In this document: piece after piece, positions 1-54,432 of the stretch
How the letters are laid out: every line of letters starts with the position of its first letter
Numbering within the stretch: the stretch's first letter is position 1
Source: a virus
Taxonomy: Duplodnaviria > Caudoviricetes
Length of the DNA stretch: 64,000 bases
Reading direction: 5' to 3' (one strand)
IMG/VR virus record: IMGVR_UViG_2724679462_000002
Location: 32,001 to 96,000 of that record
Position numbers and translations under genes: made by a program
Notes under the pieces: model-generated
Databases searched by the model: none
What the model saw: the letters and a program-made list of their open reading frames with translations, nothing else
Told to the model about the DNA's origin: nothing

Positions 1-291
1 GCGGTGCCGCCCGGCCTGGGGAGCGGTTTGAAATGGGAGGTCGACTTCTTCCTCAAGCCCGACGGCACGTACTTCCCGTGGGTCAAACTCGACCTTGAAG
101 TGCGTAAGCGGACGAAGGACGTCGCCGATCTGCCTGCGTTTCCGTTCCAGGCTCTGGAGTGGATTCTCAAGCAGACGGGCGAGCGCAGTGCCGAGGAAGA
201 AACGAAGCTGCGCGGAATCTACGAAGAGTGCTTCTTGGCGAAGAATTGCTACGCGACCAACTTCGTTCGCCAGCAACCTGTAGAAACATGA
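1..291 (+). CDS. Hypothetical protein, 3' part (begins before the window)
   Basis: Open frame from the window edge to TGA at 289-291, phage-like codon use, followed by a family hairpin. Confidence 0.6.
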   Translation, partial: AVPPGLGSGLKWEVDFFLKPDGTYFPWVKLDLEVRKRTKDVADLPAFPFQALEWILKQTGERSAEEETKLRGIYEECFLAKNCYATNFVRQQPVET

Positions 292-340
292 CGGACATAA
301 CGCCAGAGTGGAACAAGTCCACTCTGGCTTTTATGCCGTC
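290..340. repeat. GGCATAA/TTATGCC hairpin, copy 1 (putative terminator)
   Basis: GACGGACATAACGCCAGAGTGGA-ACAAG-TCCACTCTGGCTTTTATGCCGTC between convergent genes. Confidence 0.75.
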
Positions 341-373: not shown

Positions 374-856
374 TCATGCCGGAGCGCTGGCCAGTTGAAG
401 GTTCAGCGTCAGGACGCCCTGGAAAGCGAGCGATGTGGGCTCGGCCGCGAGAACAGCACCGACGACCGAACCGTAGGTGATGTTCTGCACGTCTGCCTGC
501 GCCATTTGCAAGCCGTAGTAGGCGTTGATCTGGTTGAGCAGCGTGTAGGCGTCCGTCGGCAAGCTCGTGACCTGGATCGGTGTTGGCGTTGATGCATACG
601 CCGTCAACGTGGCCAGATCGATGCGCTTGTAGAGGAAGGTGCGGGAGCCGCGATAGCGACGAGGAAACACGTTCGGGTCCATCGACAACTGAACGAACGT
701 GTCGCGCTGATAGGCGTCGGCAACGAGCGGGGTAGTGCTAGTTGGAATGCCGTACAGCACGCCGGTCGCAGGCAACATGAAGCCGTTGCTCGCGTAGATG
801 AGATCCCGAATGATGTCCTGGGACTTTTTGCTGTAGTCGCAGAGGGGAGTCGGCAT
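374..856 (-). CDS. Probable virion/tail-associated protein (160 aa)
   Basis: Motifs FLYKRIDL, LLNQINAYYGL and AEPTSLAFQG resemble small phiKZ-like virion domains; lies downstream of the fibre cluster. Confidence 0.65.
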   Translation of the reverse strand: MPTPLCDYSKKSQDIIRDLIYASNGFMLPATGVLYGIPTSTTPLVADAYQRDTFVQLSMDPNVFPRRYRGSRTFLYKRIDLATLTAYASTPTPIQVTSLPTDAYTLLNQINAYYGLQMAQADVQNITYGSVVGAVLAAEPTSLAFQGVLTLNLQLASAPA

Positions 857-975: not shown

Positions 976-3495
976 TTACTTCATCCGGAGCAGCCGCTTG
1001 AGACCATCCTTCCAGCGACGGGCACGAGCCTTCTTCTCCAGACTGACCGCAGCCTTCGCATGACTGCGGGCATGCTCCAGCCAATCAAGTGCTGTGTAGT
1101 CGTACATGAACTCGTTCACCGAGGCACCGACCACATAACCATCGACGATGATTGGCGACCCGAGCGTCACCGGCAGGTACACCAGCGTGTCCGGCGTCGA
1201 CGGCATCACTTCGACCTTGCGCTTGACGAATCCATCCAGATGGGCGAAGTCCACATCACCTATGAAGTGGCTGTAGAGATCCTTCAACCCCTTGACAACG
1301 CCGAGCTCAACTTCCCTTCGCCACATCGCTGGATTGGCCGACCACCACCATTGACGACCGTCCTTGCGCGCCCAGAACGAATGCTCTTCGCTCCAGCGCA
1401 GGCGATCGCCGGCGAATCCCATCAGGTGACGATGTCCCAGGCGGGAAACGTGGAGACGCTGGACTTCTTCTGGGCCCGTCGCTCCCGCGACCCAGTCGCC
1501 CGCACGAACCGTTTCGATCGGCTGCCAGCTCTGATCTGCCATGAGCACGAGGCTTCCTGCAGTGAAGCAGCAGGTATCAGTGCTACCACCGCCTGAGGAC
1601 GGGGGAGGAGGAGCTGCGCCGTTGATGTAACCATACTGAGGCTGACCGCGGTTCGGCGAACCTTGAATGATCACCGCGTAGCTACGCGGGCTACCCGTCT
1701 GACCGACACCGCTTACGCCCGAGTACGCCGTGAACAAGCCGTTGCCGTTTTGGATGAAGCTGTACGAGCGGTCGTTCGACAGCACGACGTTATCGCCCAG
1801 CGACGAATGGAAGACCATGTTGTCCAAACTTCCGTTCGCGCAGATAACCGTGACGATGTTGCCGGACCGGAAAAAGCCCTGAATCTGAGCGCCGCCGGGT
1901 GCCGTGAAAAACGGGAAACTGCCCGTAACCGTCGTGTCGCCCCCGGTCTGTCTCCAATACGCCGTTGCACCTTGGACCGAGTAGCACAACTCCAAGCTCC
2001 GGCCCATGTTGCCAGCCATCGCGCCCGAATAATTGGTGCCGTAGTACTGGGTTCCGGTCTCCGTGACCGGATGACCACTCGCGTTGATCTGCGCTTGCGC
2101 ATTGGCCAGATCGCCGCCGAGGTTATTCCACGGCCCCACTGCACCCAACGCCTGCGCGCTGACCCCATGCGGGTTGTTGTAGTTCCCGATGTGATTGTTG
2201 ATGCTGGCCGAGTTCGAGTTGAAGATTCCCGCCATCCAGTTCGCGGCATTGTTAATGGCGTCGGCGTACTGCGCTTGCGTCATCCCACCAAGCTGGCCGA
2301 TCGTCACGCCGTGCGGATTGCTCCGGTTCGCAATGTGGTTGGTCAATGTGGACATCAGCGTCTGCAGCGCCGCCGCTGTCCACGTTCCAAGTTGCGCCGG
2401 GGTCACGCCGTGCGGATTGTTCGTGTTCGCGACGTGCGCGCTCAGCGCCGAGCTCGCGCCACTCGCACTACTCGAAACCGTGGCTGCTGCTGCTGCGATC
2501 GCCGATTGAATTGCCGGCACGCTTTCCGTGCCCAGTTGAGTCACCGTCACCTGGTGCGGATTGCCGGTATCGTTCAGGTGCGCGGTCATCACAGCAGCGT
2601 TCGCGCTGATGGTTCCGTTCACCGTCGTTTGCGCAGCGCTGATCTTTCCATTGGCCTGCGACACCGAATACATTCCGACCTGGGCCAGTGTGACCCCGTG
2701 CGGGTTACTCTGGTTCGACGTGTGGTTGGTCAGCGTCTGAGCGACGTTGGCGTCTCCTGCCTGGCGCGCCTGCGTCTCCACGAGGATCGCAGCATCCTGC
2801 TGCGCCTCGGTGAGCGCGCCGAGTTGGGCGGACGTCACCTGGTGTGGGTTACTGTGATTTGCGATGTGACCAGCAAGCGCCGTGTTCTGGGCCGATACAA
2901 CCTGGAGCTCGTCGTTCTCCATCGCGTCCGCATATGCCCGAACTCGAGACTGCGCCAGCGGATCGCCCATGATCGCGAGCTGCGCGATGCGGTCGATAGC
3001 ATGCACCACGTACTCGAACGTGATGAGACCCGCCTGACCGTCGTCATGCATCGCCTCAGATGCAGGCAGATCGGATACCCGGTCTACTACGGACGGCCAC
3101 GTCGAAGGCCGCGTCGCTGGTTCGAACGTGCCGACTTCGGTTGCGAGCACCGTTTGTGGTGTTGCGAAACCGGCACCCAGCGCCTGGTACTCGATTACGA
3201 GGTTGCCGGAGACGCTGGGGTCGGTCACGACGACGAGCGAGACGATGTTGGTGTCGTTCGGGGTGCCGTACTTGGTCGTCGCCAGATCCATCAGGCCCGT
3301 GGTGAAGTACTGCGATGGGGTGACGGGATTGTTCGAGGTCGAATCGGTGATCTTCAGGGTCGATTCGTAGAAGCCGCCGTATACCGGGGCAAACGCGCGA
3401 ACCAGCCCCGATCCGATGCTGTGGCTCTCCGACGTGATGTGATTGGTCGGTGCCTTCGCCGTGGGATCCAGCGGCAAAGTCAAGACTTCTGACAT
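976..3495 (-). CDS. Tail fibre paralogue A: six NPHxVT repeats, a tip domain and a C-terminal Hint domain (839 aa)
   Basis: N-terminal LPLDPT domain shared with neighbours; six HxxNxxNPHxVTxxQxG repeats; PPPPSSGGGS linker then CFTAGSLVLMADQSWQPIETVRAGDWV; GGAGG RBS. Confidence 0.85.
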   Translation of the reverse strand: MSEVLTLPLDPTAKAPTNHITSESHSIGSGLVRAFAPVYGGFYESTLKITDSTSNNPVTPSQYFTTGLMDLATTKYGTPNDTNIVSLVVVTDPSVSGNLVIEYQALGAGFATPQTVLATEVGTFEPATRPSTWPSVVDRVSDLPASEAMHDDGQAGLITFEYVVHAIDRIAQLAIMGDPLAQSRVRAYADAMENDELQVVSAQNTALAGHIANHSNPHQVTSAQLGALTEAQQDAAILVETQARQAGDANVAQTLTNHTSNQSNPHGVTLAQVGMYSVSQANGKISAAQTTVNGTISANAAVMTAHLNDTGNPHQVTVTQLGTESVPAIQSAIAAAAATVSSSASGASSALSAHVANTNNPHGVTPAQLGTWTAAALQTLMSTLTNHIANRSNPHGVTIGQLGGMTQAQYADAINNAANWMAGIFNSNSASINNHIGNYNNPHGVSAQALGAVGPWNNLGGDLANAQAQINASGHPVTETGTQYYGTNYSGAMAGNMGRSLELCYSVQGATAYWRQTGGDTTVTGSFPFFTAPGGAQIQGFFRSGNIVTVICANGSLDNMVFHSSLGDNVVLSNDRSYSFIQNGNGLFTAYSGVSGVGQTGSPRSYAVIIQGSPNRGQPQYGYINGAAPPPPSSGGGSTDTCCFTAGSLVLMADQSWQPIETVRAGDWVAGATGPEEVQRLHVSRLGHRHLMGFAGDRLRWSEEHSFWARKDGRQWWWSANPAMWRREVELGVVKGLKDLYSHFIGDVDFAHLDGFVKRKVEVMPSTPDTLVYLPVTLGSPIIVDGYVVGASVNEFMYDYTALDWLEHARSHAKAAVSLEKKARARRWKDGLKRLLRMK

Positions 3496-3522: not shown

Positions 3523-4932
3523 TTAGTGATACGAAAGGTTGTAGACCGCCGTTGCCAGCGCGCTCTGCCACTGGGCGTAGGTCCACCCTCCCAACTGAGC
3601 GACCGTCACGTTGTGCGGGTTGCTGTAGTTGTAGATGTGGCTGTTGATCCAGTTCGTCTGTGGGTTCAGGTACGAGACCTGGGCAGGCGTCGTGAAGTTG
3701 TTGGCGATGTTGTTGTTGATCTGCGCTGCGGTCAGCGTGCCAACCTGCGCCGTCGTCACCTGGTGCGGGTTGTTGCCGTTACCAACGTGACCTGCTACGC
3801 CGCTATTTATGTTGCCGATGCTTGCGCTGTCCCACCCGTTAATCTGGGTGAGCGTCACCTGATGCGGATTGCTCGTGTTCGCGATGTGCGCATTCATCGT
3901 CGCCTCATCCGCGTTCAGCTGCGTCGTGACCGGTGACATCGCGTTGCTGATCGTGGTATTGATCTGCGCCGTCGTCTGTCCATCGATCTGGGTGAGCGTA
4001 ACCAGGTGCGGATTGCTTTTGTTCGCGATGTGGGCACTCATCGCGGCCGCGTCCGTTGAGAGCGTCGTGTTCAGTGCTGTCGTTATTGAGCTCAGGTTCG
4101 AATCCGCTTGCGCCGAGGTGTAGCCGCCTGCTTGCGCAGCAGTCACTTGGTGCGGGTTGTCGGTCCGCGTCGCGTGCGCCGTGATATTCGTCGTCAGCGT
4201 TGCATCGCCGGCCGTGCGCGCGCTGGCCTCGCTTGCGATCAAGCTGCTCACTTGGGCCGCCGAGTAGACGTCAACCTGAGCGAGTGTCACCTGGTGAGGG
4301 TTGTTCTCGTTCGCGATGTGTGCCGCCAGCGCCTGTGCCAAGTTGGCAATGTCCGCGTTGCGCAGCGCTGCCTGCTGGTCCAGGTAGTTGAGTGTCGAGT
4401 CGTACGACGAAGCCTTGATGAGCGTCATCGCATTCAAGATCATCTCGAGCCCGCTTACCACGTAGTCCCAGTTGTACGTGTCGCCCACGGCGTGCATGTG
4501 CAGCACGGGCGTGAACGTATCCGGCAGGTCCGTGATGTTCGCGAACTTGACGCTCCGGTTATCGTTCGCCAGCGTCGCCACCTCGGTCGCAATCGCTGCA
4601 ATCGGACGGCTATACTCGCCACCGAGCGCCTGATAGCTCAGCTCGACGTTCGGACCCACTGTCGGATCCGTGATCACCACGACGCCGTAGATTTCCTGTC
4701 CGACTAGGCTCGATGCTTGTTCGTGAAGGAACTGGAACTGATACTGCGTGACGTCAAGTTGCTTTTGCGTGAAGCTGTCGACGATCTCCATCGACGACGC
4801 GAAGAACGCACCATAGTTCGGCGCAATTGCTCTGACTGGATCGGTCCCGATCGCGTGGGCGTCGCCCGTCACGTAATTGTCTTTACTTTGACCGGTTTTA
4901 TCCAGCGGGTACCGATAGAGATTCGGTGTCAT
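3523..4932 (-). CDS. Tail fibre paralogue B (469 aa), six NPH repeats
   Basis: Start moved to ATG 4932 (MTPNLYRYPLDKTG, AAGGA RBS); same N-terminal domain and repeats. Confidence 0.85.
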   Translation of the reverse strand: MTPNLYRYPLDKTGQSKDNYVTGDAHAIGTDPVRAIAPNYGAFFASSMEIVDSFTQKQLDVTQYQFQFLHEQASSLVGQEIYGVVVITDPTVGPNVELSYQALGGEYSRPIAAIATEVATLANDNRSVKFANITDLPDTFTPVLHMHAVGDTYNWDYVVSGLEMILNAMTLIKASSYDSTLNYLDQQAALRNADIANLAQALAAHIANENNPHQVTLAQVDVYSAAQVSSLIASEASARTAGDATLTTNITAHATRTDNPHQVTAAQAGGYTSAQADSNLSSITTALNTTLSTDAAAMSAHIANKSNPHLVTLTQIDGQTTAQINTTISNAMSPVTTQLNADEATMNAHIANTSNPHQVTLTQINGWDSASIGNINSGVAGHVGNGNNPHQVTTAQVGTLTAAQINNNIANNFTTPAQVSYLNPQTNWINSHIYNYSNPHNVTVAQLGGWTYAQWQSALATAVYNLSYH

Positions 4933-4951
4933 GTTTCCTTTACTCCGTCGA

Positions 4952-6358
4952 TCAGCCCGGGCTGTGCAGCGTGCTGTTGATGAGGTTCTGCAGATACGCG
5001 CCGGTGTAGGCACCGCCCGTGTTATTCACGTTGTCCCCGTGCGGATTGTTCTGATTACCCACGTGGGCGTTGATCGTGCCGTTGAGCGCATTGACTTCGT
5101 TCACAACCACCTGATACTGGTAGGCGATGTTGTTGTTGATGTCCGTAGCGCTATACGTGCCGAGCTGCGCGATCGTGACCCCGTGCGGGTTGCTCAGGTT
5201 ATTGACGTGTGACGAATACGGAGAAACGATCGAATTCTGGATCGTTGTATAAGTCCACGTTCCGATGTTGGCTGCCGTATCCCCGTGAGGGTTGCTTTTG
5301 TTCGAGGTGTGCGCATTGAGCGAGCTTTCGAAAGCGGTCACTTGCGTTTGCAGCGTCGCTTTCTGGGACGCCACTGCACTTGCGATCTGGCCCGTAGTCC
5401 AGGTGCCGATCTGAGCGGCGGTGACTTGGTGCGGGTTGCTATAGTTCGCAATGTGTGCGTTCTGCGTCGTCTCGTTCGCCGTGATCGTCGCCTGCAGCGC
5501 AGTCTGCATCGCGGTCATCGCTGCATCCGACTGCGTCGTGCTGAATGCTCCGAGCTGCGCGGTCGTGACCTTGTGCGGATTGGTGTGGTCCGCGGCGTGC
5601 GTATTGAGCTGACCTTGGATCGACGAATCCCCGTTGACGCGATTTGTGGTCTCTGTCGCGAGCGCAGCGGTCGTCTCCTCGGTCGTGTATGAACCGATCT
5701 GATGCGCCGTCACCTGATGCGGATTGGTGAAGTTCGAGGCGTGAGCGTTAAGTGCAGTGTTAGCTGCAGCGATCTGACCGATCAGTTCCTGAATGACGGC
5801 TTCGGCATACGCTTGCAGCTCCCCCTGGGCCGTTCCCTGACCCAATTGGATTGCGCTTCCGAGACGATCCAACGCGACGACGACGAACTCCATGCCGTAC
5901 ATGTCGTCAGCGATGTGCTGGTGAGGTGCGACCGGGTACTTGCTCGGCTTGTTCGTAATGCTCGCCCAGGTAGCAGGTGCGTCATCAATCTGCAAGCCAG
6001 TGACGGCCGTGGTCACAGCAGCCTGAGAGATGCTGTTGACGCCGCCCAGCGCCTGGTACATCACGCTGACATTCGGACCCACGCTCGAGTCGGTAATGAC
6101 AATGCTCGCGTCGATCTCCTGCCCGTACCGCATCGAGGCCTCGACGTCCATCTGAGTGGCGTAATACTGCGACCCTTGGACGAGAACCTTATTCGTGGTC
6201 GTGTCTTTAACGACCAACGACTTCCGGAAAAAAAGACCGTAGTTGACCGGAAACGCCCGCGTGCCGCGCGTTCCGATCGTTTGGACCTCAGCCGTGATGA
6301 GATTGCTGGCTGCGCTACCGGTCGGGTCCAAAGGTAGCGTAAGCGGTGGCGTAGACAT
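4952..6358 (-). CDS. Tail fibre paralogue C (468 aa), six NPH repeats
   Basis: Start moved to ATG 6358 (MSTPPLTLPLDPTGS), which aligns with the paralogue N-termini. Confidence 0.85.
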   Translation of the reverse strand: MSTPPLTLPLDPTGSAASNLITAEVQTIGTRGTRAFPVNYGLFFRKSLVVKDTTTNKVLVQGSQYYATQMDVEASMRYGQEIDASIVITDSSVGPNVSVMYQALGGVNSISQAAVTTAVTGLQIDDAPATWASITNKPSKYPVAPHQHIADDMYGMEFVVVALDRLGSAIQLGQGTAQGELQAYAEAVIQELIGQIAAANTALNAHASNFTNPHQVTAHQIGSYTTEETTAALATETTNRVNGDSSIQGQLNTHAADHTNPHKVTTAQLGAFSTTQSDAAMTAMQTALQATITANETTQNAHIANYSNPHQVTAAQIGTWTTGQIASAVASQKATLQTQVTAFESSLNAHTSNKSNPHGDTAANIGTWTYTTIQNSIVSPYSSHVNNLSNPHGVTIAQLGTYSATDINNNIAYQYQVVVNEVNALNGTINAHVGNQNNPHGDNVNNTGGAYTGAYLQNLINSTLHSPG

Positions 6359-6478
6359 AAGGGTTGACTCCGGCCAGAGCACAAAGCCCGGCTTGAATAC
6401 ATACGGCGACCACGCCCAAGCCCACGCTGGGCGCACCTGCCGCCTAACGTGGGTCTTGAGGGGATCGGAAAAGACGAT

Positions 6479-8746
6479 TTAGGTGGTACCGTTCACAGCG
6501 TTGGCGAGCGTGGTAAACGCAGTGGTCAACTGCGTGAGCATGTTGCTCATCTCGGACGCCAATGCGAACGTGTCCGACGTCGTATAGACGATGCCCGTCG
6601 GTTCCGTCGTGACCTGCGTGATCGTCGACAGGAACTGGCTGGTGTTTTCCGAGAGCGACGTCACCGAGATCTGGTTCGTGTGACCCGGCGTTTTCATCCA
6701 GACCGTCAGAACCGGCGCATTCGCGTTGGTCGTGTCGATTGTGTAGCCGAAGACAGCGGTGGTCGTGCTCAGACCGCTCAGGCTGATCGCCTGCATCGCA
6801 ACGTTGTTGGTCTGAGTCGTATCACGTACCGAGATACGCAGGAACCACGCACCGCTCTGCGCGTCAGTGGTTGCATCGCCGCCCGTCACAATCCACTGAA
6901 CGTCCGGAAACACCGTCTGCGCCTGCGCGCTACCCGGCATGTTCAGCTGCCCGATTGGCGTCCAGACGTTTGCTGCTGCGTTGGTATTTGACGGAACGGA
7001 TTCCTGCGCTGCCACCACGCCCGAGGTCCAGAGCTGCGCGTTGCTCGCTGCGATCGCTGCTGCCTGCAACTGCGACGCCGATTGACCGCCCAATGCCGTC
7101 GCGTTCGCTGCCGTGCCTGCGAGAATTGCCGACGTCAGCTGAGCCTGTGTCAAGCCGTTAAGCTGGGCCGAGTTCGCTGCGGTACCGGCAAGGATGGAAG
7201 CGGTCAACTGCGAGACATTCTGACCACCCAGCTCCAGGGAGTTGGCTGCGGTTCCCGACAGGATTGCAGACGTCAGCGCAGCCTGCGTCAGGCCGTAGAC
7301 CAGGTTCGCATTCGCCACCGTCGCGTTCGCGATGTACGTGTCCCAGTCCGAGGGCGACATGCCGCCGAACATCTCCGAGTCGTTCGCCGTGCCGCCGGAC
7401 ACATACGTCTGGAACTGCGCGGGCGTCATGCCGCCGAGCATCGTCGCGTTGTTTGCCGTGCCAGCCAGAATCTGCGAGGTGAGCTGCGCGACCGTCAAGC
7501 CGCCCAACAGAGAACTGTCCGCCGCCTTGCCCGTCGTGGTCAGATAGCTCTGCAGCATGGAGTCGACCTGGGCGCTCGAATACGCGCCAACCTGAGCAGC
7601 CGTCACATGGTGCGGATTGGTAAAGTCCGCCTCGTGCGTCGTAATCAGTCCCATCGCGCCGCTCGCATTGAGCGCAGCGGCCGTCGCGGCTGGTGTCATG
7701 TACAGGTCGTTGCTCGTACCAGCGATCGCGTCTGCGGTCGTGGCAGTCGACAGGTTTCGAACGTTGCCGAGACCTACCTGTGCCGCGCTTACCTGGTGCG
7801 GGTTGCTGATGTTCAGCAAGTGAGCGTTCAGTGACGAGCCCAGCGAATTGTTGATCGCAGCCATCGTCGTGGCGGGCGTCATGTACAGAGACGTCGAGAC
7901 GCCTGCTGCCGCGTCCGCGGGCGTGGCCACACCGTAGTTCTGGACGTTCCCCAACCCCACCTGAGCAGCCGTCACATGGTGCGGGTTCGTGTAGTTCGCA
8001 ATGTGCGAGTTCATCGGACCGAGCACCTGCGACTGAATCGCCGCGGCGGTGGTCGCTGGCGTCATGTACATGGTGGTCGAGGTGCCCGCGACCCCGTCAC
8101 TGTTTGCCGCCGGCGCGTAGTTCTGAACGTTCCCGAGCCCGACCTGAGATGCGGTCACGACGTGCGGATTGTTGTGGTCCGCTTCGTGTGCGGCCAGGCC
8201 CGTGCCACCGGTCTGCTGGAGAACCGTCTGGATGCCGGAAAGCGCGTCGACCACCTCCGTCATTCCGACGAGATCGTTGATGTCCCAGCTGTGTGCTTCG
8301 GGCGGGAATGCGTAAGGCGTGCCGCTGATTTCTTCCCACGACGTGGTGCGGGCATTGTCCAGCGTGTTCGCGAGCATTGTCGCGATCTGCTGCGCGCTCA
8401 GCGTCCAGACACCACCGACCGTCTGATATTGAAGGGATACAATACCGGCGAGTGCCGTGTCGATGAAACTGATCGAGCCGTACACCCGTTTCGCACACGC
8501 TCGGCTTGCCGAGATGAACCAGTGCGTGAAATAGAAGTCGACGCCTTCATGGAGCGTGCTGATCTGACCGGACGTGTCCTTGTAGGTGATCTGGACAGTG
8601 TCAGCGAAGAACGGCGCGGCGGCCGGAATGATGAGGTGCTGGTCCCGAAAATTCTGAGCTACCAGCTGTTGTTGCTCGCCCTTGATCAGGTTCGATGCCA
8701 GCGAACCCGTCGGATCGAACGGATACGAAAGAGTGGATGTGGACAT
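6479..8746 (-). CDS. Tail fibre paralogue D (755 aa)
   Basis: YPFDPTG N-terminal domain; four NPH repeats, three followed by QVGLGNV...YMTP (about 61-aa period); about seven AxNAxxLGG repeats; C-terminal beta-rich domain. Confidence 0.85.
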   Translation of the reverse strand: MSTSTLSYPFDPTGSLASNLIKGEQQQLVAQNFRDQHLIIPAAAPFFADTVQITYKDTSGQISTLHEGVDFYFTHWFISASRACAKRVYGSISFIDTALAGIVSLQYQTVGGVWTLSAQQIATMLANTLDNARTTSWEEISGTPYAFPPEAHSWDINDLVGMTEVVDALSGIQTVLQQTGGTGLAAHEADHNNPHVVTASQVGLGNVQNYAPAANSDGVAGTSTTMYMTPATTAAAIQSQVLGPMNSHIANYTNPHHVTAAQVGLGNVQNYGVATPADAAAGVSTSLYMTPATTMAAINNSLGSSLNAHLLNISNPHQVSAAQVGLGNVRNLSTATTADAIAGTSNDLYMTPAATAAALNASGAMGLITTHEADFTNPHHVTAAQVGAYSSAQVDSMLQSYLTTTGKAADSSLLGGLTVAQLTSQILAGTANNATMLGGMTPAQFQTYVSGGTANDSEMFGGMSPSDWDTYIANATVANANLVYGLTQAALTSAILSGTAANSLELGGQNVSQLTASILAGTAANSAQLNGLTQAQLTSAILAGTAANATALGGQSASQLQAAAIAASNAQLWTSGVVAAQESVPSNTNAAANVWTPIGQLNMPGSAQAQTVFPDVQWIVTGGDATTDAQSGAWFLRISVRDTTQTNNVAMQAISLSGLSTTTAVFGYTIDTTNANAPVLTVWMKTPGHTNQISVTSLSENTSQFLSTITQVTTEPTGIVYTTSDTFALASEMSNMLTQLTTAFTTLANAVNGTT

Positions 8747-19100: not shown

Positions 19101-19819
19101 GTGAGCAAAATACGTGAAGACTGGCTTGAGCATGAGATCGAAATGGCCGTTGCTGGTGTCGACCCGTTTGGCACGCGCGGACTAAAGAAGGAAGAGGTCA
19201 GGCCGGTGTCTACGGTCTCTACTTCCCCGAGGTGGACCGTGTCTATTTCGGAAAAACCAACAACTTGTACCGCCGCCGGAACAAACACATGTTCGATCTC
19301 GCCAATCGGATCCATCCGAATTGGAAAGTTCAAGGCGCATACGACGCTTCGAACGACAAGCGATTCATGTTTCTTCCATTGGCGTTGCAGGAGAAGGAAG
19401 ACCGCACCCGGGCGGAACAGACTTTGGTCGATCAGTACTGGGAAACCGGCAAAGTTCTCAACATTTCCAAGGATGCGATCGTCCCTGCCAGAGGACAAGT
19501 CTTCACCCGGGAGCGCCTTGAACGGATGTCGCTCATTGCGCGCAAGCACTTTGCCGACAACCCCCATGCACGACAACGGCTTTCCGCAGTCGCTAAGGAA
19601 CAGTGGAGAGATCCGAACTCGCGACAGCTTCTAGTCGAACGGGCACTTCCGAATCTCAAGCTCGGTGTGTCGGCAACATCGAAGAAGGTTCTCGTCGACG
19701 GGGTCCTCTACTTGTCTTACAACGAAGCCGGCAGAGCGCACGGGATCCATCACTCTCACGTCAGCTATCGCATTAACAGCAAGGGTTTCCCCACGTGGAA
19801 ACTCATCGAGCAAGAAGAA
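19101..19819 (+). mobile_element. GIY-YIG homing endonuclease copy 1 (5' end frameshifted; no stop, fused to RNase H)
   Basis: AGVYGLYFPEVDRVYFGKTNNLYRRRNKH...E...LN, then C-terminal VLVDGVLYLSYNEAGRAHG HTH-type motif. Confidence 0.8.
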
Positions 19820-21364
19820 ATGACAACTGAAACCGAAGTCACAGTCAAGGAACAGACCGCAGATGCGGTCAAAGTAGCAATGGGGATGTCCCTTTATGCT
19901 GATGGAGGCGCTTCGCCGAATCCGGGTCCCAGCGGCTGGGGAATCCATGGTTTCCTCTACTCGGACGAGAAGCCGAAGAAGGGAACGGGTAATGGAGGCT
20001 GGCTGTTGACTCAGCGCGGCTACATCACCAAGGCCGACGCTACTCACAGGGGCGGCGTGGCTGAAGTAACACCGATTCATTACGTGGACGGTTACGGCTC
20101 GATTCTCGTGTCCCATTCGCCCAAGAAGCCGACCAACAACGTGGGCGAGCTGATGGCTGCGACGCGCGCACTCGAGCACGCGATCAACTACGAGATCAAA
20201 CGCGTGCTGGTCACTACCGATTCTCAGTACGTGCGCAAGGGCATCGAAGAGTGGGTCGAAGGCTGGCAGCGTAACGGCTGGTTGAAGCGTGACGGCGAAC
20301 CCGTTGCGAACGATGGGCTGTGGAAGGAATTGATCGCAGCGAAGCAGCGACTCGTTGACCGGGGCGTCGAAGTGGCGTTCGCCTGGGTCAAGGGGCACGA
20401 CGGTCATCTGGGCAACGACATTGCCGACAAGCATGCAACCCTCGGCGTTCTGCTTTCGCAGCAAGACATCTTCAAGAGCGACGTGACGACCACGGTCGCT
20501 GACGGCTACTGGAAGTACGATAGCGAACGCCATCCGATGTTGGCAAACCGCCGGATGTACTTCAACACGGTCAAGGAATATCAGAAGCCGGGCGAATACT
20601 ATCTCGGCGAGCATGGAACCGAAGACGACCTGCTGGGCAAGCGCATCAGCGATGGCGCGTACTCGGTCGTGCGACTGAAAGAAGCTGATCCCTCCATCGA
20701 GTTCGTGCGTAACCATACGACCGATCTCGCGTGCGGGATGGATTCCATCGTCATGATTCGACTCGATCAACTCTTCAGCGCGGTCACCCACAAGGAAGTC
20801 ATGCGTTATGGGACGATCGCGATGCCACGGGCGAACCTCGGGCGACTCGATCTGAACTGCTTGGACGAGGAACCGGGGCCGGGCCACAAGCGAAAGCCTC
20901 TGACGCGAGAGTGCCGTCCTCCCAAGCTTGCCATGCGTGCTGTCGAGGCGCTCTCCGATCTGATCGACAAGCTCGAAATGTATCAGGCTGCGAACCCGCT
21001 CGTGACTGCGACGGACCTGACCGAGATACTTTATGAGACACGTGAGAAGCCTGTCGGTAAGAAGGGGGAAACGGTCTCAACCATGGAGCTGCGTCCGCAG
21101 TTTGTGGTTGGCTTTGCAGCACTCGAGGTTCAAGCAAACTACCGCGACGGAGACGGGACTGCACAGGTTCCGGTTACCCTCACGCTGGGCATCGACTTGC
21201 TCAATCGCAATTCGCTCAAGCGTCTGGAGAAGACTCAACCCAAGGTCACCCTACTTACCTGGCTGGAATCCCCCACGGCGTTCCGATACGCCACTGTGGT
21301 GGAAGCAGACGGGGACGTCGGGATCTGGGCGGGCGTCTACTCGAACCTCCGCATGGTCGTATAA
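19820..21364 (+). CDS. rnhA: Ribonuclease HI with phage-specific C-terminal extension
   Basis: YADGGASPNPGPSGWG, TNNVGEL, TDSQYV, WVKGHDGHLGNDIAD; probable own start MTTETEV. Confidence 0.92.
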   Translation: MTTETEVTVKEQTADAVKVAMGMSLYADGGASPNPGPSGWGIHGFLYSDEKPKKGTGNGGWLLTQRGYITKADATHRGGVAEVTPIHYVDGYGSILVSHSPKKPTNNVGELMAATRALEHAINYEIKRVLVTTDSQYVRKGIEEWVEGWQRNGWLKRDGEPVANDGLWKELIAAKQRLVDRGVEVAFAWVKGHDGHLGNDIADKHATLGVLLSQQDIFKSDVTTTVADGYWKYDSERHPMLANRRMYFNTVKEYQKPGEYYLGEHGTEDDLLGKRISDGAYSVVRLKEADPSIEFVRNHTTDLACGMDSIVMIRLDQLFSAVTHKEVMRYGTIAMPRANLGRLDLNCLDEEPGPGHKRKPLTRECRPPKLAMRAVEALSDLIDKLEMYQAANPLVTATDLTEILYETREKPVGKKGETVSTMELRPQFVVGFAALEVQANYRDGDGTAQVPVTLTLGIDLLNRNSLKRLEKTQPKVTLLTWLESPTAFRYATVVEADGDVGIWAGVYSNLRMVV

Positions 21365-53214: not shown

Positions 53215-54432
53215 ATGACTGAACAGCAAGACAAGGCATACGTCTACATCTTCCACAACCCTGAGACAGGCGATGTCAACGTAGGGAGTACAAAAGACGA
53301 AAAGTACCGCCAACGCAAACACCTTTCTGCGTTGAGAGGCGCTCGACACAGCAACTACAAATTTCAAAGATGCTACGCCAGGAAACCAAACTTCGAATTT
53401 GTGTCAATGGAAGTACCCGATCGGGATACCGCCCTCGCGCTCGAGCAATCGATCATTGACGAGTTTTACGGCTCACCATCCTTCTTGAACATTTCGAAAG
53501 ACGCGGCTTACTGCAACGTGTGGCAGTCCCCTGCTTCAATCGAACGAATGCGCAAGGCACTGACTGGGCGAAAACTATCTGCTGAACATATTGAGAAGTC
53601 GCGCCAAGGACTTCTTCGCCTCAACAGAAAGATGAGCGCGGAGCAGAAGGAACGCCTGCGGGAATGCTTCAAAGGCATTCCTTTGTCTGCAGCAACGAAA
53701 GCCAAGCTCTCTATAAGCGGCAAGGCTCGATTCGACGATCCGCTAGAACGGCTGAAAATCAGCGTAGGCCATCGCGGTAAGCTTCTAAGCGCGGAACATC
53801 GCGCGAAACTCAGTCTTGTTGCACGCGGTCGAAAAGACACGGACGCGAAGAGGCTGAACATGCGACGCGGTAACGCATATCGATCAAAAAGCGTTCTAAT
53901 CGACGGTACAACATACCGGACCTTAGCCGAAGCGGCGGAGGCACTCGGAGTGCACAAGACCACAATTACCAACCGTATCAAGGCCGGCCTGTACCAGGGG
54001 GCAGAACAACAGGATTCATCGATGCACCGCAAGATGACGATCTGGACAATACAGCTGTCCAAGTGGCGATTAGCACGAGAACTCGGCATTCATCTCATCG
54101 ACTGTACCGCTCGCTCGGGCATTTCCGCGTTTGCCCCACTCTTCGACGACGTCATGGCGTACAAGCGCGGCGTGCTCAGTGAGGAGCAATACACCAAACG
54201 TTACCTCGCACGGATGCGTCACTCGCGACGGGAACAATCCAAGGAATGGGAACGCGTCAAAACCCTGCCGGAAAGGATCGCCCTCGCGTGCTATTGCAAG
54301 GCCGGGGTCTTCTGCCATCGCCATCTCTTCCGAGACTTGCTCAGCGACTATCTCAAGGACGCCCAGTTCGAGGTGAAGTGCGCGGGCGAGCTCATCTCCT
54401 CGATCCCTCCACACGTAAAAGCAGAAGCATGA
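53215..54432 (+). CDS. GIY-YIG/NUMOD3 endonuclease copy 3 fused in frame to a DUF488-like domain
   Basis: YVYIFHNPETGDVNVGST...R...H...EQ...LN; KLSAEH repeats; VLIDGTTYRTLAEAAEALG; then FAP...Y...LACYCKAGVFCHRHL. Confidence 0.82.
   Translation: MTEQQDKAYVYIFHNPETGDVNVGSTKDEKYRQRKHLSALRGARHSNYKFQRCYARKPNFEFVSMEVPDRDTALALEQSIIDEFYGSPSFLNISKDAAYCNVWQSPASIERMRKALTGRKLSAEHIEKSRQGLLRLNRKMSAEQKERLRECFKGIPLSAATKAKLSISGKARFDDPLERLKISVGHRGKLLSAEHRAKLSLVARGRKDTDAKRLNMRRGNAYRSKSVLIDGTTYRTLAEAAEALGVHKTTITNRIKAGLYQGAEQQDSSMHRKMTIWTIQLSKWRLARELGIHLIDCTARSGISAFAPLFDDVMAYKRGVLSEEQYTKRYLARMRHSRREQSKEWERVKTLPERIALACYCKAGVFCHRHLFRDLLSDYLKDAQFEVKCAGELISSIPPHVKAEA

What the first reader, a model, noticed from the sequence alone, without database searches (positions are those of the whole stretch)
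976..1620. Hedgehog/intein-like Hint domain capping a tail fibre
Seen: after a PPPPSSGGGSTDTC linker comes CFTAGSLVLMADQSWQPIETVRAGDWV (block A, Cys at residue 643), SEEH (block B TxxH equivalent), then VY...IIVDGYVVGA with no terminal His-Asn, followed by a basic 45-aa tail. Known: Hint domains lacking the C-terminal Asn cleave at their N-terminus through a thioester and do not splice; Hedgehog uses this to attach cholesterol; fibre self-cleavage usually uses S74 chaperones. Inference: the tip is released or covalently ligated to a nucleophile during assembly or at the host surface. The adjacent Cys642 could take part.
Basis: partly seen in the sequence, partly recalled or inferred. Interest (0 to 1): 0.8.

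Follow-up and report, generated by a model that had tools for sequence, protein, structure and literature searches.

The report
Self-cleaving Hint cap on phage fibre
The last 197 residues of this jumbo-phage tail fibre are a genuine hedgehog/intein-type (Hint) domain built to cut only at its own front end, most likely a throw-away cap removed after the fibre assembles, and it belongs to a large family of such fibre caps that no paper I could find describes.

Summary
ORF 976..3495 (-) encodes an 839-aa fibre of a phiKZ-like jumbo phage. Residues 643-791 fold as a Hint domain (AF2 pLDDT 89.5; Z 16.4 to Tetrahymena BIL2, Z 12-14 to inteins and Hedgehog).

In 139 full-length family members:
- Cys1 is present in 139.
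- The block-B His is present in 138.
- The site of the intein terminal Asn holds Ala, Gly, Ser, Thr or Cys, with Asn in 0.
- The module always ends the protein.

Four full-length orthologues of 631-642 aa lack the cap and stop inside the Pro/Gly linker. They look like the predicted cleavage product (1-642).

My best reading (0.55) is a self-removing assembly cap. An N-to-S acyl shift at Cys642|Cys643 gives a thioester, which is then hydrolysed or thiolysed. Functionally this parallels the S74 intramolecular chaperones. Rival readings are thioester-driven ligation (0.2) and a retained, non-cleaving domain (0.15). No chemistry was tested.

The module is rare in deposited phages (4 of 50,697 records). 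Ten literature searches found no paper on it. This scan has reported other Hint caps on phage fibres on other DNA, but none with this sequence.

Side finding: in 13 of 28 related viral loci a radical-SAM/SPASM maturase follows the capped fibre, and this co-occurs with CxCxCxC runs before Cys1.

The parts
976..3495 (-). Tail-fibre gene, 839 aa (88.6 kDa). Last long gene of a run of four paralogous fibre genes.
   Evidence: PHROG phrog_2163 (E 2.3e-66) and several tail-fibre PHROGs on residues 3-478. Mass.
2926..3495 (-). N-terminal anchor region (about residues 1-190), shared with the three upstream paralogues.
   Evidence: phrog_2163 matches in all four genes. The boundary is approximate and comes from sequence only, because the full-length model never came back.
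2086..2925 (-). Shaft with six 'NPH' repeats (about residues 191-470; NPH at 216, 264, 312, 360, 393, 441).
   Evidence: Tail-fibre PHROG matches on 195-478.
1621..2085 (-). Distal beta-rich 'tip' region (residues 471-625). It is the most variable globular part and the likely specificity determinant (inferred).
   Evidence: Region identities: P0005 is 64% identical here against 94% in the Hint domain. No named family.
1570..1620 (-). Pro/Gly linker GAAPPPPSSGGGSTDTC (residues 626-642), ending in the -1 residue Cys642.
   Evidence: The cap-less orthologues end inside this linker.
1567..1569 (-). Codon of Cys643, the Hint position-1 nucleophile. The predicted scissile bond is Cys642|Cys643.
   Evidence: Cys in 139 of 139 members. 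Pairs with intein residue 1.
1123..1569 (-). Hint domain (residues 643-791), with Gly790-Ala791 where inteins have His-Asn.
   Evidence: AF2 pLDDT 89.5. Foldseek and VIA matches. Column counts.
1381..1392 (-). Block B, Ser702-Glu-Glu-His705 (the TxxH equivalent).
   Evidence: His in 138 of 139; Ser or Thr in 132 of 139 (Val in 7); Glu or Asp before the His in 137 of 139. Aligned to T..H of 8w20.
1081..1122 (-). Conserved 14-residue post-Hint tail SVNEFMYDYTALDW (residues 792-805). It is part of the family module.
   Evidence: Asn or Asp794 in 122 of 139, Asp799 in 120, Tyr800 in 124, Trp805 in 124. pLDDT about 90.
979..1080 (-). Lineage-specific basic helix (residues 806-839, pI 11.7). Stop codon at 976-978.
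   Evidence: Helix 180-212 of the model. Only 15% mean identity in the distant orthologues. pI.
374..856 (-). Downstream gene, 160 aa, DUF7941 / virion structural protein. The same neighbour is seen in related jumbo-phage loci.
   Evidence: Pfam DUF7941 E 4.1e-19. phrog_1037. A homologue lies downstream in 5 related loci (L003, L006, L011, L012, L014).
3523..8746 (-). Three upstream paralogous fibre genes (3523..5013, 4952..6436, 6479..8746) without a Hint cap.
   Evidence: phrog_2163 and tail-fibre PHROGs. No Pfam family. Only one cap copy in the whole assembly.

Best explanation
Residues 643-839 are a disposable, self-removing C-terminal cap.

**What the Hint domain keeps and lacks**
- It keeps the two residues needed for the first step of Hint chemistry: Cys643, and His705 of the S-x-x-H block.
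- It lacks the terminal His-Asn and any conserved +1 nucleophile. It therefore cannot splice or cut at its C-terminus in the intein way.

**Proposed steps**
1. The fibre is made and folded in the infected cell.
2. Cys643 attacks the carbonyl of Cys642 (N-to-S acyl shift).
3. The resulting thioester is resolved by water or a cellular thiol.
4. The 22.5-kDa cap leaves. A 66-kDa mature fibre (1-642) remains, ending in the Pro/Gly linker just behind the variable tip domain.

**Proposed role.** The cap would serve assembly: folding, solubility, registration or masking of the tip. That makes it a functional analogue of the S74 intramolecular-chaperone domains of other fibres, but built on a different fold.

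**Shown here:** the fold, the residue pattern, the strict C-terminal position, the family, and natural cap-less orthologues.

**Inferred:** the acyl shift, the cleavage, its timing, and the assembly role.
For: **(1) Hint fold with catalytic positions in register.**
- Model pLDDT 89.5.
- Z 16.4 to BIL2, and Z 12-14 to inteins and Hedgehog.
- Cys643 pairs with intein residue 1 and Ala791 with the last intein residue.
- Profile against PDB sequences gives E 1.1e-8.

**(2) Selection on the N-terminal chemistry only.** Among 139 full-length domains:
- Cys1 in 139.
- Phe2 in 138.
- Block-B His in 138.
- Ser or Thr in 132.
- The Asn position holds Ala 91, Gly 30, Ser 16, Thr 1, Cys 1.
- The penultimate position holds no His.
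- Mean column identity of the seed alignment is only 43%.

**(3) Always an end-module.** In all 139, 0-73 residues (median 7) follow the aligned domain.

**(4) Attached to unrelated fibre bodies.**
- These include NPH-repeat fibres, J-like tip proteins, collagen-like fibres and tail-collar fibres.
- 29 of 83 representatives scanned hit a PHROG of category 'tail' upstream of the cap. 18 hit other or unnamed PHROGs and 36 hit none (my count).
- A conserved module on variable bodies fits a housekeeping role, not receptor specificity.

**(5) Conservation within orthologues.** The tip diverges faster than the cap. P0005 has 64% identity in the tip and 94% in the Hint domain.

**(6) Natural cap-less orthologues.**
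- Four full-length orthologues (P0172-P0175, 631-642 aa) are 55-60% identical over the fibre body.
- They have no cap and stop inside the Pro/Gly linker, at or within about 15 alignment columns before Cys643.
- The fibre is therefore functional without a permanent cap.

**(7) Precedent for this residue pattern.** Hog-Hint and B-type BIL domains cleave at their N-terminus (PMC7765530, passages).

**(8) Precedent for removable fibre caps.** S74 intramolecular chaperones are the known case (PMC7824862 and PMC12403621, passages).
Against: - No chemistry was tested, and a predicted model cannot show cleavage.
- Cap-less orthologues fit equally well with the cap being an optional extra functional domain.
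- Simple hydrolysis does not explain three features:
  - position -1 is Thr, Ser or Cys in 130 of 139;
  - an acidic residue precedes the block-B His in 137 of 139;
  - a Trp-rich signature (WWW at 716-718) and a 14-residue post-Hint tail are conserved.
  Together these could mark a binding site for an acceptor.
- 7 of 139 members have Val in place of the block-B Ser/Thr.
- 14 of the 170 proteins examined carry several partial, tandem Hint matches that are not C-terminal caps. 17 more were short or cut ORFs. These 31 were left out of the column counts.
- An assembly or chaperone role is argued by analogy only. Hint domains are not known to trimerise.
- The trimer test could not be run (see Tried and rejected).
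Confidence: 0.55

Rival explanations
1. Thioester-driven ligation. The acyl shift at Cys643 activates the fibre's new C-terminus (Cys642). The fibre is then transferred to a specific nucleophile: a Lys or hydroxyl of another virion protein (for example the DUF7941 neighbour or a fibre paralogue), a small molecule or lipid, or a host-envelope group. The fibre ends up covalently anchored or modified, as Hedgehog is with cholesterol and BUBL ubiquitin-like domains are with lysines.
For: - The residue set is the same as for cleavage.
- The best structural match is BIL2 of the Tetrahymena BUBL1 locus (Z 16.4). BIL2 conjugates its N-terminal partner to lysines through an isopeptide bond (PMC8616854, section 2.4, passages).
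- Several conserved extras could form an acceptor site by analogy with the Hedgehog sterol-recognition region (PMC7765530):
  - the WWW signature;
  - Glu704;
  - the 14-residue tail;
  - the Thr/Ser/Cys preference at -1.
- The DUF7941 gene is a conserved downstream neighbour in the jumbo subgroup.
Against: - No acceptor has been identified.
- The post-Hint tail is only 14 conserved residues, and the longer helix is not conserved (15% identity).
- Cap-less orthologues end with ordinary free C-termini in the same linker, so an adduct is not needed for fibre function.
- In a thiol-rich cytoplasm an unprotected thioester would mostly be lost to hydrolysis or thiolysis (general chemistry, my knowledge).
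- BIL2 itself keeps a terminal Asn (the crystallised mutant is N143A), which this family lacks.
Confidence: 0.2
2. A retained, non-cleaving distal domain. The Hint fold stays on the fibre and acts as a binding or structural knob, possibly together with the basic helix. The Cys and His would be conserved for structure or metal binding rather than catalysis.
For: - Cleavage is untested.
- The cap is the most distal element of the fibre, where receptor-binding domains usually sit.
- The basic helix (pI 11.7) could bind anionic surfaces.
- Orthologues carry Cys/His just upstream of Cys1 ('CH..SC'), which could make a metal site.
- Zn is known to modulate Hint domains (PMC8616854).
Against: - Invariance of exactly the two first-step catalytic residues across 139 otherwise 40-50% identical members is hard to explain by structure alone.
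- The cap is conserved across phages with unrelated fibre bodies and evolves more slowly than the neighbouring tip. This is the opposite of what is expected for a specificity domain.
- Cap-less orthologues exist.
Confidence: 0.15
3. A decaying intein or selfish Hint remnant that landed at the end of a fibre gene and has no role for the phage.
For: - Inteins and homing endonuclease genes are common in jumbo phages.
- This window has two homing-endonuclease-like gene parts.
Against: - The family is large: 151 representatives at E <= 1e-30 and 764 at E <= 1e-10.
- It has its own conserved signature and tail and is always terminal.
- It has no endonuclease insert.
- It has no members with His-Asn (0 of 139).
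- These are the marks of a selected module, not of independent decay.
Confidence: 0.03

Closest known systems
Hog-Hint (Hedgehog autoprocessing domain, PDB 1AT0/6TYY) and B-type bacterial intein-like (BIL) domains
   Same: - Hint fold: Z 12.6-12.8 to 1at0 and 6tyy.
- 'C-F' at the scissile site.
- Block-B His.
- No terminal His-Asn, so N-terminal cleavage through a thioester is the expected reaction (PMC7765530, passages).
   Different: - Pfam Hint (17.7 bits against 29.7) and Hint_2 (13.5 against 28.4) are far below cut-off.
- There is no sterol-recognition region, only a 14-residue conserved tail.
- Position -1 is Thr, Ser or Cys rather than Gly.
- The context is the end of phage tail fibres.
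- The family has its own WWW signature.
BIL2 of the Tetrahymena thermophila BUBL1 locus (PDB 6Y75, 6TMM)
   Same: - It is the best structural match: Z 16.4, rmsd 2.2, 137 of 150 residues; Foldseek E 2.3e-7.
- It uses the N-terminal thioester to hand its upstream partner to a nucleophile (PMC8616854).
   Different: - Only 13-14% identity.
- BIL2 keeps the terminal Asn (N143) and sits between two ubiquitin-like domains.
- Here nothing functional follows the domain, and the Asn is absent in 139 of 139.
S74 peptidase / intramolecular chaperone auto-cleaving domains of tail fibres and spikes (K1F endosialidase, T5 L-shaped fibre)
   Same: Proposed job: a conserved C-terminal module on variable trimeric fibres that helps assembly and then removes itself (PMC7824862 section 3.4.5; PMC12403621; passages).
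   Different: - Unrelated fold and chemistry: a Ser-Lys dyad against a Cys thioester.
- No S74 family hit in this protein.
- Cleavage by the Hint cap is not yet shown.
Canonical inteins and A-type BIL domains (e.g. PI-SceI, C. thermocellum BIL 2LWY)
   Same: - Fold, block A and block B.
- Sequence-level relation: profile E 1.1e-8 to PI-SceI; Z 13.6 to 2lwy.
   Different: - No His-Asn and no +1 nucleophile.
- No C-extein to ligate and no endonuclease.
- Never internal to a conserved host protein.
Other Hint caps on phage fibres reported earlier in this scan (e1-6041522, e1-5867739, e1-3507311, e1-5887962, e1-5987163)
   Same: The same idea: a Hint domain as the last module of phage tail fibres, judged self-removing and not found in the literature.
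   Different: - By their notes these are closest to A-type BIL domains.
- None shares sequence words with this cap.
- This family lacks the terminal Asn and has its own tail and WWW signature.

Membership tests
Hint (Hedgehog/intein) superfamily | Hint beta-fold | tested here: met
   AF2 pLDDT 89.5. Z 16.4 to 6y75_B; 80 of 589 chains at Z >= 8, the listed ones all Hint domains. Foldseek finds 27 chains at E <= 0.001.
Hint (Hedgehog/intein) superfamily | Nucleophile (Cys/Ser) at position 1 | tested here: met
   Cys643 pairs with intein residue 1. Cys in 139 of 139 members.
Hint (Hedgehog/intein) superfamily | Block B T-x-x-H | tested here: met
   Ser702-x-x-His705 aligned to T..H of 8w20. His in 138 of 139; Ser or Thr in 132 of 139.
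Canonical (class 1) intein | Terminal Asn (usually His-Asn) for C-terminal cleavage | tested here: not met
   Gly790-Ala791 occupy these positions. Asn in 0 of 139 and His in 0 of 139. Asn794, three residues further on, is Asn in 74 and Asp in 48 of 139, and is not at the structural position.
Canonical (class 1) intein | +1 Cys/Ser/Thr and a C-extein that is ligated; insertion inside a conserved host protein | tested here: not met
   The column after Ala791 holds mainly Gly 71, Phe 23 and Ser 17. Only 0-73 residues follow the domain. The domain is always terminal.
A-type BIL | Conserved His-Asn at the C-terminal end (PMC7765530) | tested here: not met
   0 of 139.
B-type BIL (Pfam Hint_2, by my recollection of the correspondence) | Intein motifs present except the C-terminal one; family model score | tested here: inconclusive
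   The motif pattern fits. However, Hint_2 scores 13.5 bits against a cut-off of 28.4 and covers only residues 17-65.
Hog domain (Hedgehog) | Hint followed by a sterol/adduct-recognition region; Pfam Hint model | tested here: not met
   Pfam Hint scores 17.7 bits against 29.7. Only a 14-residue conserved tail plus a non-conserved helix follows.
Hog domain (Hedgehog) | Active-site Asp/His that activates the acceptor | not testable with these tools
   Model coordinates could not be inspected. Glu704 (acidic in 137 of 139) and His752 (98 of 139) are candidates only.
PT-HINT of polymorphic toxins | Hint placed before a C-terminal toxin domain that it releases | tested here: not met
   No domain follows the cap. 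No PF07591 hit for this protein.
S74 intramolecular chaperone | Peptidase_S74 fold with Ser-Lys dyad | tested here: not met
   No such Pfam hit at E <= 1. The fold is Hint. The resemblance is functional only.

The most novel reading that the evidence does not exclude
The cap is not just cut off. It is a chemical hand-over device.

**In this phage.** The Cys643 thioester would transfer the fibre's C-terminus onto a defined nucleophile on a virion partner or on the host envelope. The result would be a covalently tethered fibre.

**In the wider family.** The same cap would act as a self-removing 'follower' that presents a CxCxCxC run to a phage-encoded radical-SAM/SPASM maturase. Tail fibres would then be matured like RiPPs (thioether-type cross-links) before the cap excises itself.
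Probability: 0.18. Interest if true: 0.9.

Novelty: new variant of a known kind. Interest (0 to 1): 0.62.

Why it matters
**A second route to removable fibre caps.** Removable C-terminal caps of phage fibres are so far known in the Ser-Lys (S74) intramolecular-chaperone form. A Hint-based cap would be a second, independent solution to the same problem. It would also show Hint thioester chemistry at work in virion assembly.

**Annotation and engineering.** The true receptor-binding end of such fibres would be the domain before the linker, not the annotated C-terminus.

**Tools.** The family offers naturally N-cleavage-only Hint domains that produce protein thioesters. These could be useful for ligation.

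**The radical-SAM link.** If real, the link seen in relatives would mean that phage structural proteins receive RiPP-type modifications.

**Ease of testing.** Everything rests on one simple experiment (gel plus MS), which is feasible with two cultured phages that carry the module.

Tried and rejected

- Full-length AF2 model from alignment A2: it had not returned after repeated polling, the last time. Domain borders upstream of residue 626 therefore rest on sequence only.

**Searches that found nothing useful**
- PHROGs has no family for the cap (0 hits for P0002).
- NCBIfam gave only a 12.6-bit intein-related hit.
- Two pattern scans of 185,579 species genomes found no relative.
- An HMM search of 400 other genomes of the same phylum found one partial, generic Hint match. 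The family was thus not found in the bacterial genomes searched.
- ESM Atlas on the tip domain returned only unnamed clusters, with low recognition.
- The search of earlier findings by place and by sequence returned nothing.

**Literature**
- All ten full-text searches found no paper on Hint-capped fibres.
- I opened the hits that mention Hint or inteins in phages: PMC3556154, PMC5259590, PMC5526547, PMC3482391 and PMC7824862. They concern terminase, RNR or helicase inteins, or toxin-releasing Hint domains.
- PMC3899368 holds no proteomics of phage JWF.
- Subscription papers and bioRxiv supplements were not searchable.

**Considered and rejected**
- Asn794 as a displaced cyclising Asn. It lies three residues past the structural position and is Asn in only 74 of 139.
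- A split gene in the cap-less orthologues.
Full report
**What is there**

The window is part of a phiKZ-like jumbo phage. It encodes split multisubunit RNA polymerase beta subunits, a tail sheath, a 2386-aa tail protein with a lysozyme domain and a head maturation protease. It lies on contig C275 of a 9.4-Mb binned assembly.

On the minus strand four paralogous fibre genes follow one another: 6479..8746, 4952..6436, 3523..5013 and 976..3495. All carry the phrog_2163 N-terminal domain and tail-fibre repeats. After them comes a 160-aa DUF7941 virion protein (374..856), and then a strong hairpin at 302-328 between convergent genes.

Only the last fibre (839 aa) carries the feature in question. 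It is the only copy in the whole assembly.

**Checking the observation**

- Linker GAAPPPPSSGGGSTDTC: residues 626-642.
- Cys643 opening CFTAGSLVLMADQSW...
- SEEH: residues 702-705.
- ...IIVDGYVVGA ending at Ala791.
- 48 further residues.

Pfam alone is not convincing. Four Hint families hit, all below their cut-offs and only over the first ~40 residues. The evidence becomes strong with relatives:
- A word-indexed search found 27 proteins with the same C-terminal module on different bodies.
- A profile of 20 of them (A1) matches intein chains in the PDB by sequence. PI-SceI gives E 1.1e-8. 8w20 gives E 2.9e-8, with the alignment passing through block B.
- The same profile finds 3766 representatives at E <= 0.001 in 1.84 billion proteins, 764 at <= 1e-10 and 151 at <= 1e-30.
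- Of the 20 seed members, 19 hit Hom_end_hint, 13 Hint and 7 Vint at E <= 0.01.

The AF2 model of the last 214 residues is confident (pLDDT 89.5, pTM 0.82):
- Foldseek's 27 PDB matches at E <= 0.001 are headed by BIL2 of Tetrahymena, the C. thermocellum BIL domain, inteins, Hedgehog and Vint.
- VIA-align gives Z 16.4 to BIL2 and Z 12-14 to some forty intein and Hedgehog entries.
- In BFVD the best matches are 'Hint domain containing' proteins of uncultured Caudovirales (E 1.3e-17) and a Providencia phage protein.

**Anatomy of the domain**

The structural alignments put Cys643 on intein residue 1 and Ala791 on the last intein residue (1lwt, Mtu RecA, 6rix and others). Gly790-Ala791 therefore replace His-Asn.

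I built an HMM from A1 and ran it over the 170 proteins then in hand. Of these, 139 have a full-length domain. The other 31 were left out of the counts: 14 have several partial tandem Hint matches, and 17 are short or cut ORFs.

Counts in the 139:

| Position | Count (of 139) |
|---|---|
| Cys1 | 139 |
| Phe2 | 138 |
| Block-B His | 138 |
| Block-B Ser/Thr | 132 (Val in 7) |
| Acidic residue before the His | 137 |
| Asn position | Ala 91, Gly 30, Ser 16, Thr 1, Cys 1 (no Asn) |
| Penultimate position | no His |
| Position -1 | Thr 56, Ser 50, Cys 24 |

After the fold comes a conserved tail with the pattern N/D-E-x-x-[FY]-D-Y-x-x-x-x-W. Trp805 is present in 124 of 139. The module ends the protein in all 139, with 0-73 residues after the aligned domain and a median of 7. 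The 34-residue basic helix of this protein is shared only with its closest relatives.

**Where the module occurs**

The bodies in front of the cap are diverse. Of 93 representatives of 330-1300 aa, close orthologues excluded, I scanned 83; ten were dropped for the size limit. Of the 83, 29 hit a PHROG of category 'tail' (J-like tip proteins, collagen-like fibres, tail-collar fibres, T4-like distal fibres), 18 hit other or unnamed PHROGs and 36 hit none. No PHROG covers the cap (my count).

In IMG/VR, 126 stretches encode a relative. I looked at the 28 loci with a full-length match:
- Their contigs range from 4.7 to 324 kb, seven of them 243-324 kb.
- One 109-kb contig has two capped genes.

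Among 50,697 deposited phage records only 4 (3 phages) carry it: Achromobacter phages JWF and 2-1, and Providencia phage PSTNGR1. In each it lies at the fibre position.

In bacterial genomes it was not found:
- Two pattern scans of the species collection found nothing.
- One partial generic match appeared in 400 genomes of the same phylum.

**What it most likely does**

The residue pattern is that of a Hint domain able to perform only the first step. This is an N-to-S acyl shift at the Cys642|Cys643 bond, giving a thioester that an outside nucleophile must resolve. It is the Hog-Hint / B-type-BIL situation (PMC7765530, passages).

Three observations favour plain removal of the cap over a lasting role:
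1. The cap is a conserved cassette on unrelated fibres.
2. Within orthologues the neighbouring tip diverges faster than the cap. P0005 shows 64% against 94% identity.
3. Four full-length orthologues of 631-642 aa (P0172-P0175) are 55-60% identical over the body. Three are named by NCBI as Paraburkholderia hypothetical proteins, and three lie on 275-284-kb contigs. They lack the cap and stop inside the same Pro/Gly linker. They look like the predicted mature product, residues 1-642 at 66.1 kDa.

A search for short proteins with the cap found 19. None was named for those organisms, though few carry names.

I therefore read the cap as a self-removing assembly module, analogous in role to S74 intramolecular chaperones (PMC7824862, PMC12403621; passages). 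My confidence is 0.55. The cleavage, its timing and the assembly role are all inferred.

**Rival readings**

Ligation (0.2) uses the same thioester but hands the fibre to a specific acceptor.
- The closest structure, BIL2, does exactly this with lysines (PMC8616854).
- The conserved extras remain unexplained by simple hydrolysis: the WWW signature, Glu704, the tail and the -1 preference.
- The cap-less orthologues argue that no adduct is needed.

A retained, non-cleaving knob (0.15) is hard to square with the invariance of just the catalytic pair and the slow evolution of the cap.

A decaying intein (0.03) does not fit a large family with its own signature and no member with His-Asn.

**Side finding in relatives**

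In 13 of the 28 viral loci a radical-SAM gene of 430-600 aa lies within 2.5 kb downstream on the same strand.
- Four were scanned against NCBIfam. Three reach the SPASM domain cut-off.
- Their best-named similarities are to RiPP maturases (PapB ranthipeptide, geopeptide, SCIFF, CcpM). None reaches an equivalog cut-off.
- Eight loci share an intervening ~240-265-aa ORF; the two scanned (L026, L018) hit no Pfam or NCBIfam family.

The radical-SAM gene tracks with Cys runs before Cys1:
- 11 of the 13 have at least two Cys, usually a CxCxCxC 'NCNCNCDC' run, in the 34 residues before Cys1.
- Of the 15 loci without the enzyme only 2 do. One of these is on the same contig as a locus that has the enzyme.
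- Fisher p is 3.8e-4, or 1.5e-3 after I merged near-identical loci. The loci are related, so these p-values overstate the case.

The window's phage contig has no radical-SAM match. The assembly has 22 matches, none on C275. Its linker has only 'TDTCC'. This bears on the family, not directly on this gene.

**Novelty and standing**

Database pipelines already label some members 'Hint domain containing'. The fold itself is therefore not news. All ten full-text searches found no paper that describes Hint domains as terminal caps of phage fibres. Subscription journals were not searchable.

This scan has reported Hint caps on phage fibres on other DNA before. By their notes those are A-type-BIL-like, and none shares sequence with this one. 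I file this as a new variant of a known kind: an N-cleavage-only Hint family with its own tail and signature, dedicated to phage fibre ends.

Noticed in passing
L007, L009, L016-L021, L023-L026, L028 (e.g. L026:5234-6598 = Achromobacter phage JWF PJWF_00030): In 13 of 28 related viral loci a radical-SAM/SPASM RiPP-maturase-like gene follows the Hint-capped fibre. In 11 of these 13 the fibre has a CxCxCxC ('NCNCNCDC') run right before Cys1, against 2 of the 15 loci without the enzyme. This is a candidate RiPP-like modification of fibre tips. It is not present on the window's contig.
   Followed up: partly
L026:4515-5237, L018:5689-6486 and six more loci: A conserved ORF of about 240-265 aa lies between the capped fibre and the radical-SAM gene; the two representatives scanned (L026, L018) have no Pfam or NCBIfam family.
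   Followed up: partly
P0172-P0175 (relatives; no locus held): The cap-less orthologues of the fibre are named as Paraburkholderia hypothetical proteins and sit on 275-284-kb contigs. This suggests related jumbo phages in Paraburkholderia assemblies and hints at a Burkholderiales host for this phage.
   Followed up: no
window 3523..8746 (-): There are three further paralogous fibre genes with the same N-terminal domain and NPH repeats but no cap. The ORFs 3523..5013 and 4952..6436 overlap as listed, so the true start of the former is probably internal (PHROG match begins at residue 27).
   Followed up: partly
window 19232..21364 (+) and 53215..54432 (+): Two genes begin with homing-endonuclease-like parts (phrog_314). 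One is fused in frame to an RNase H-like ribonuclease and the other to a phrog_2450 protein.
   Followed up: no
window 302..328: An 11-bp-stem hairpin followed by a T run lies between the convergent genes 1..291 (+) and 374..856 (-). It is a likely terminator closing the fibre operon.
   Followed up: no
relatives P0008-P0015 (linker before Cys1): The more distant jumbo-phage orthologues carry a 'C-H-x-x-S-C1' pattern (Cys and His 4-5 residues before Cys1) that this protein lacks. It is a possible metal site at the scissile bond.
   Followed up: no
P0029, P0039, P0091, P0093, P0100 and nine more: 14 of the 170 proteins examined are long proteins with 2-7 tandem partial Hint matches rather than one terminal cap. 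This is a different architecture of related Hint units.
   Followed up: no
G000 contig C275: The phage contig is binned inside a 9.4-Mb, 629-contig bacterial assembly. The window is viral, not chromosomal.
   Followed up: no
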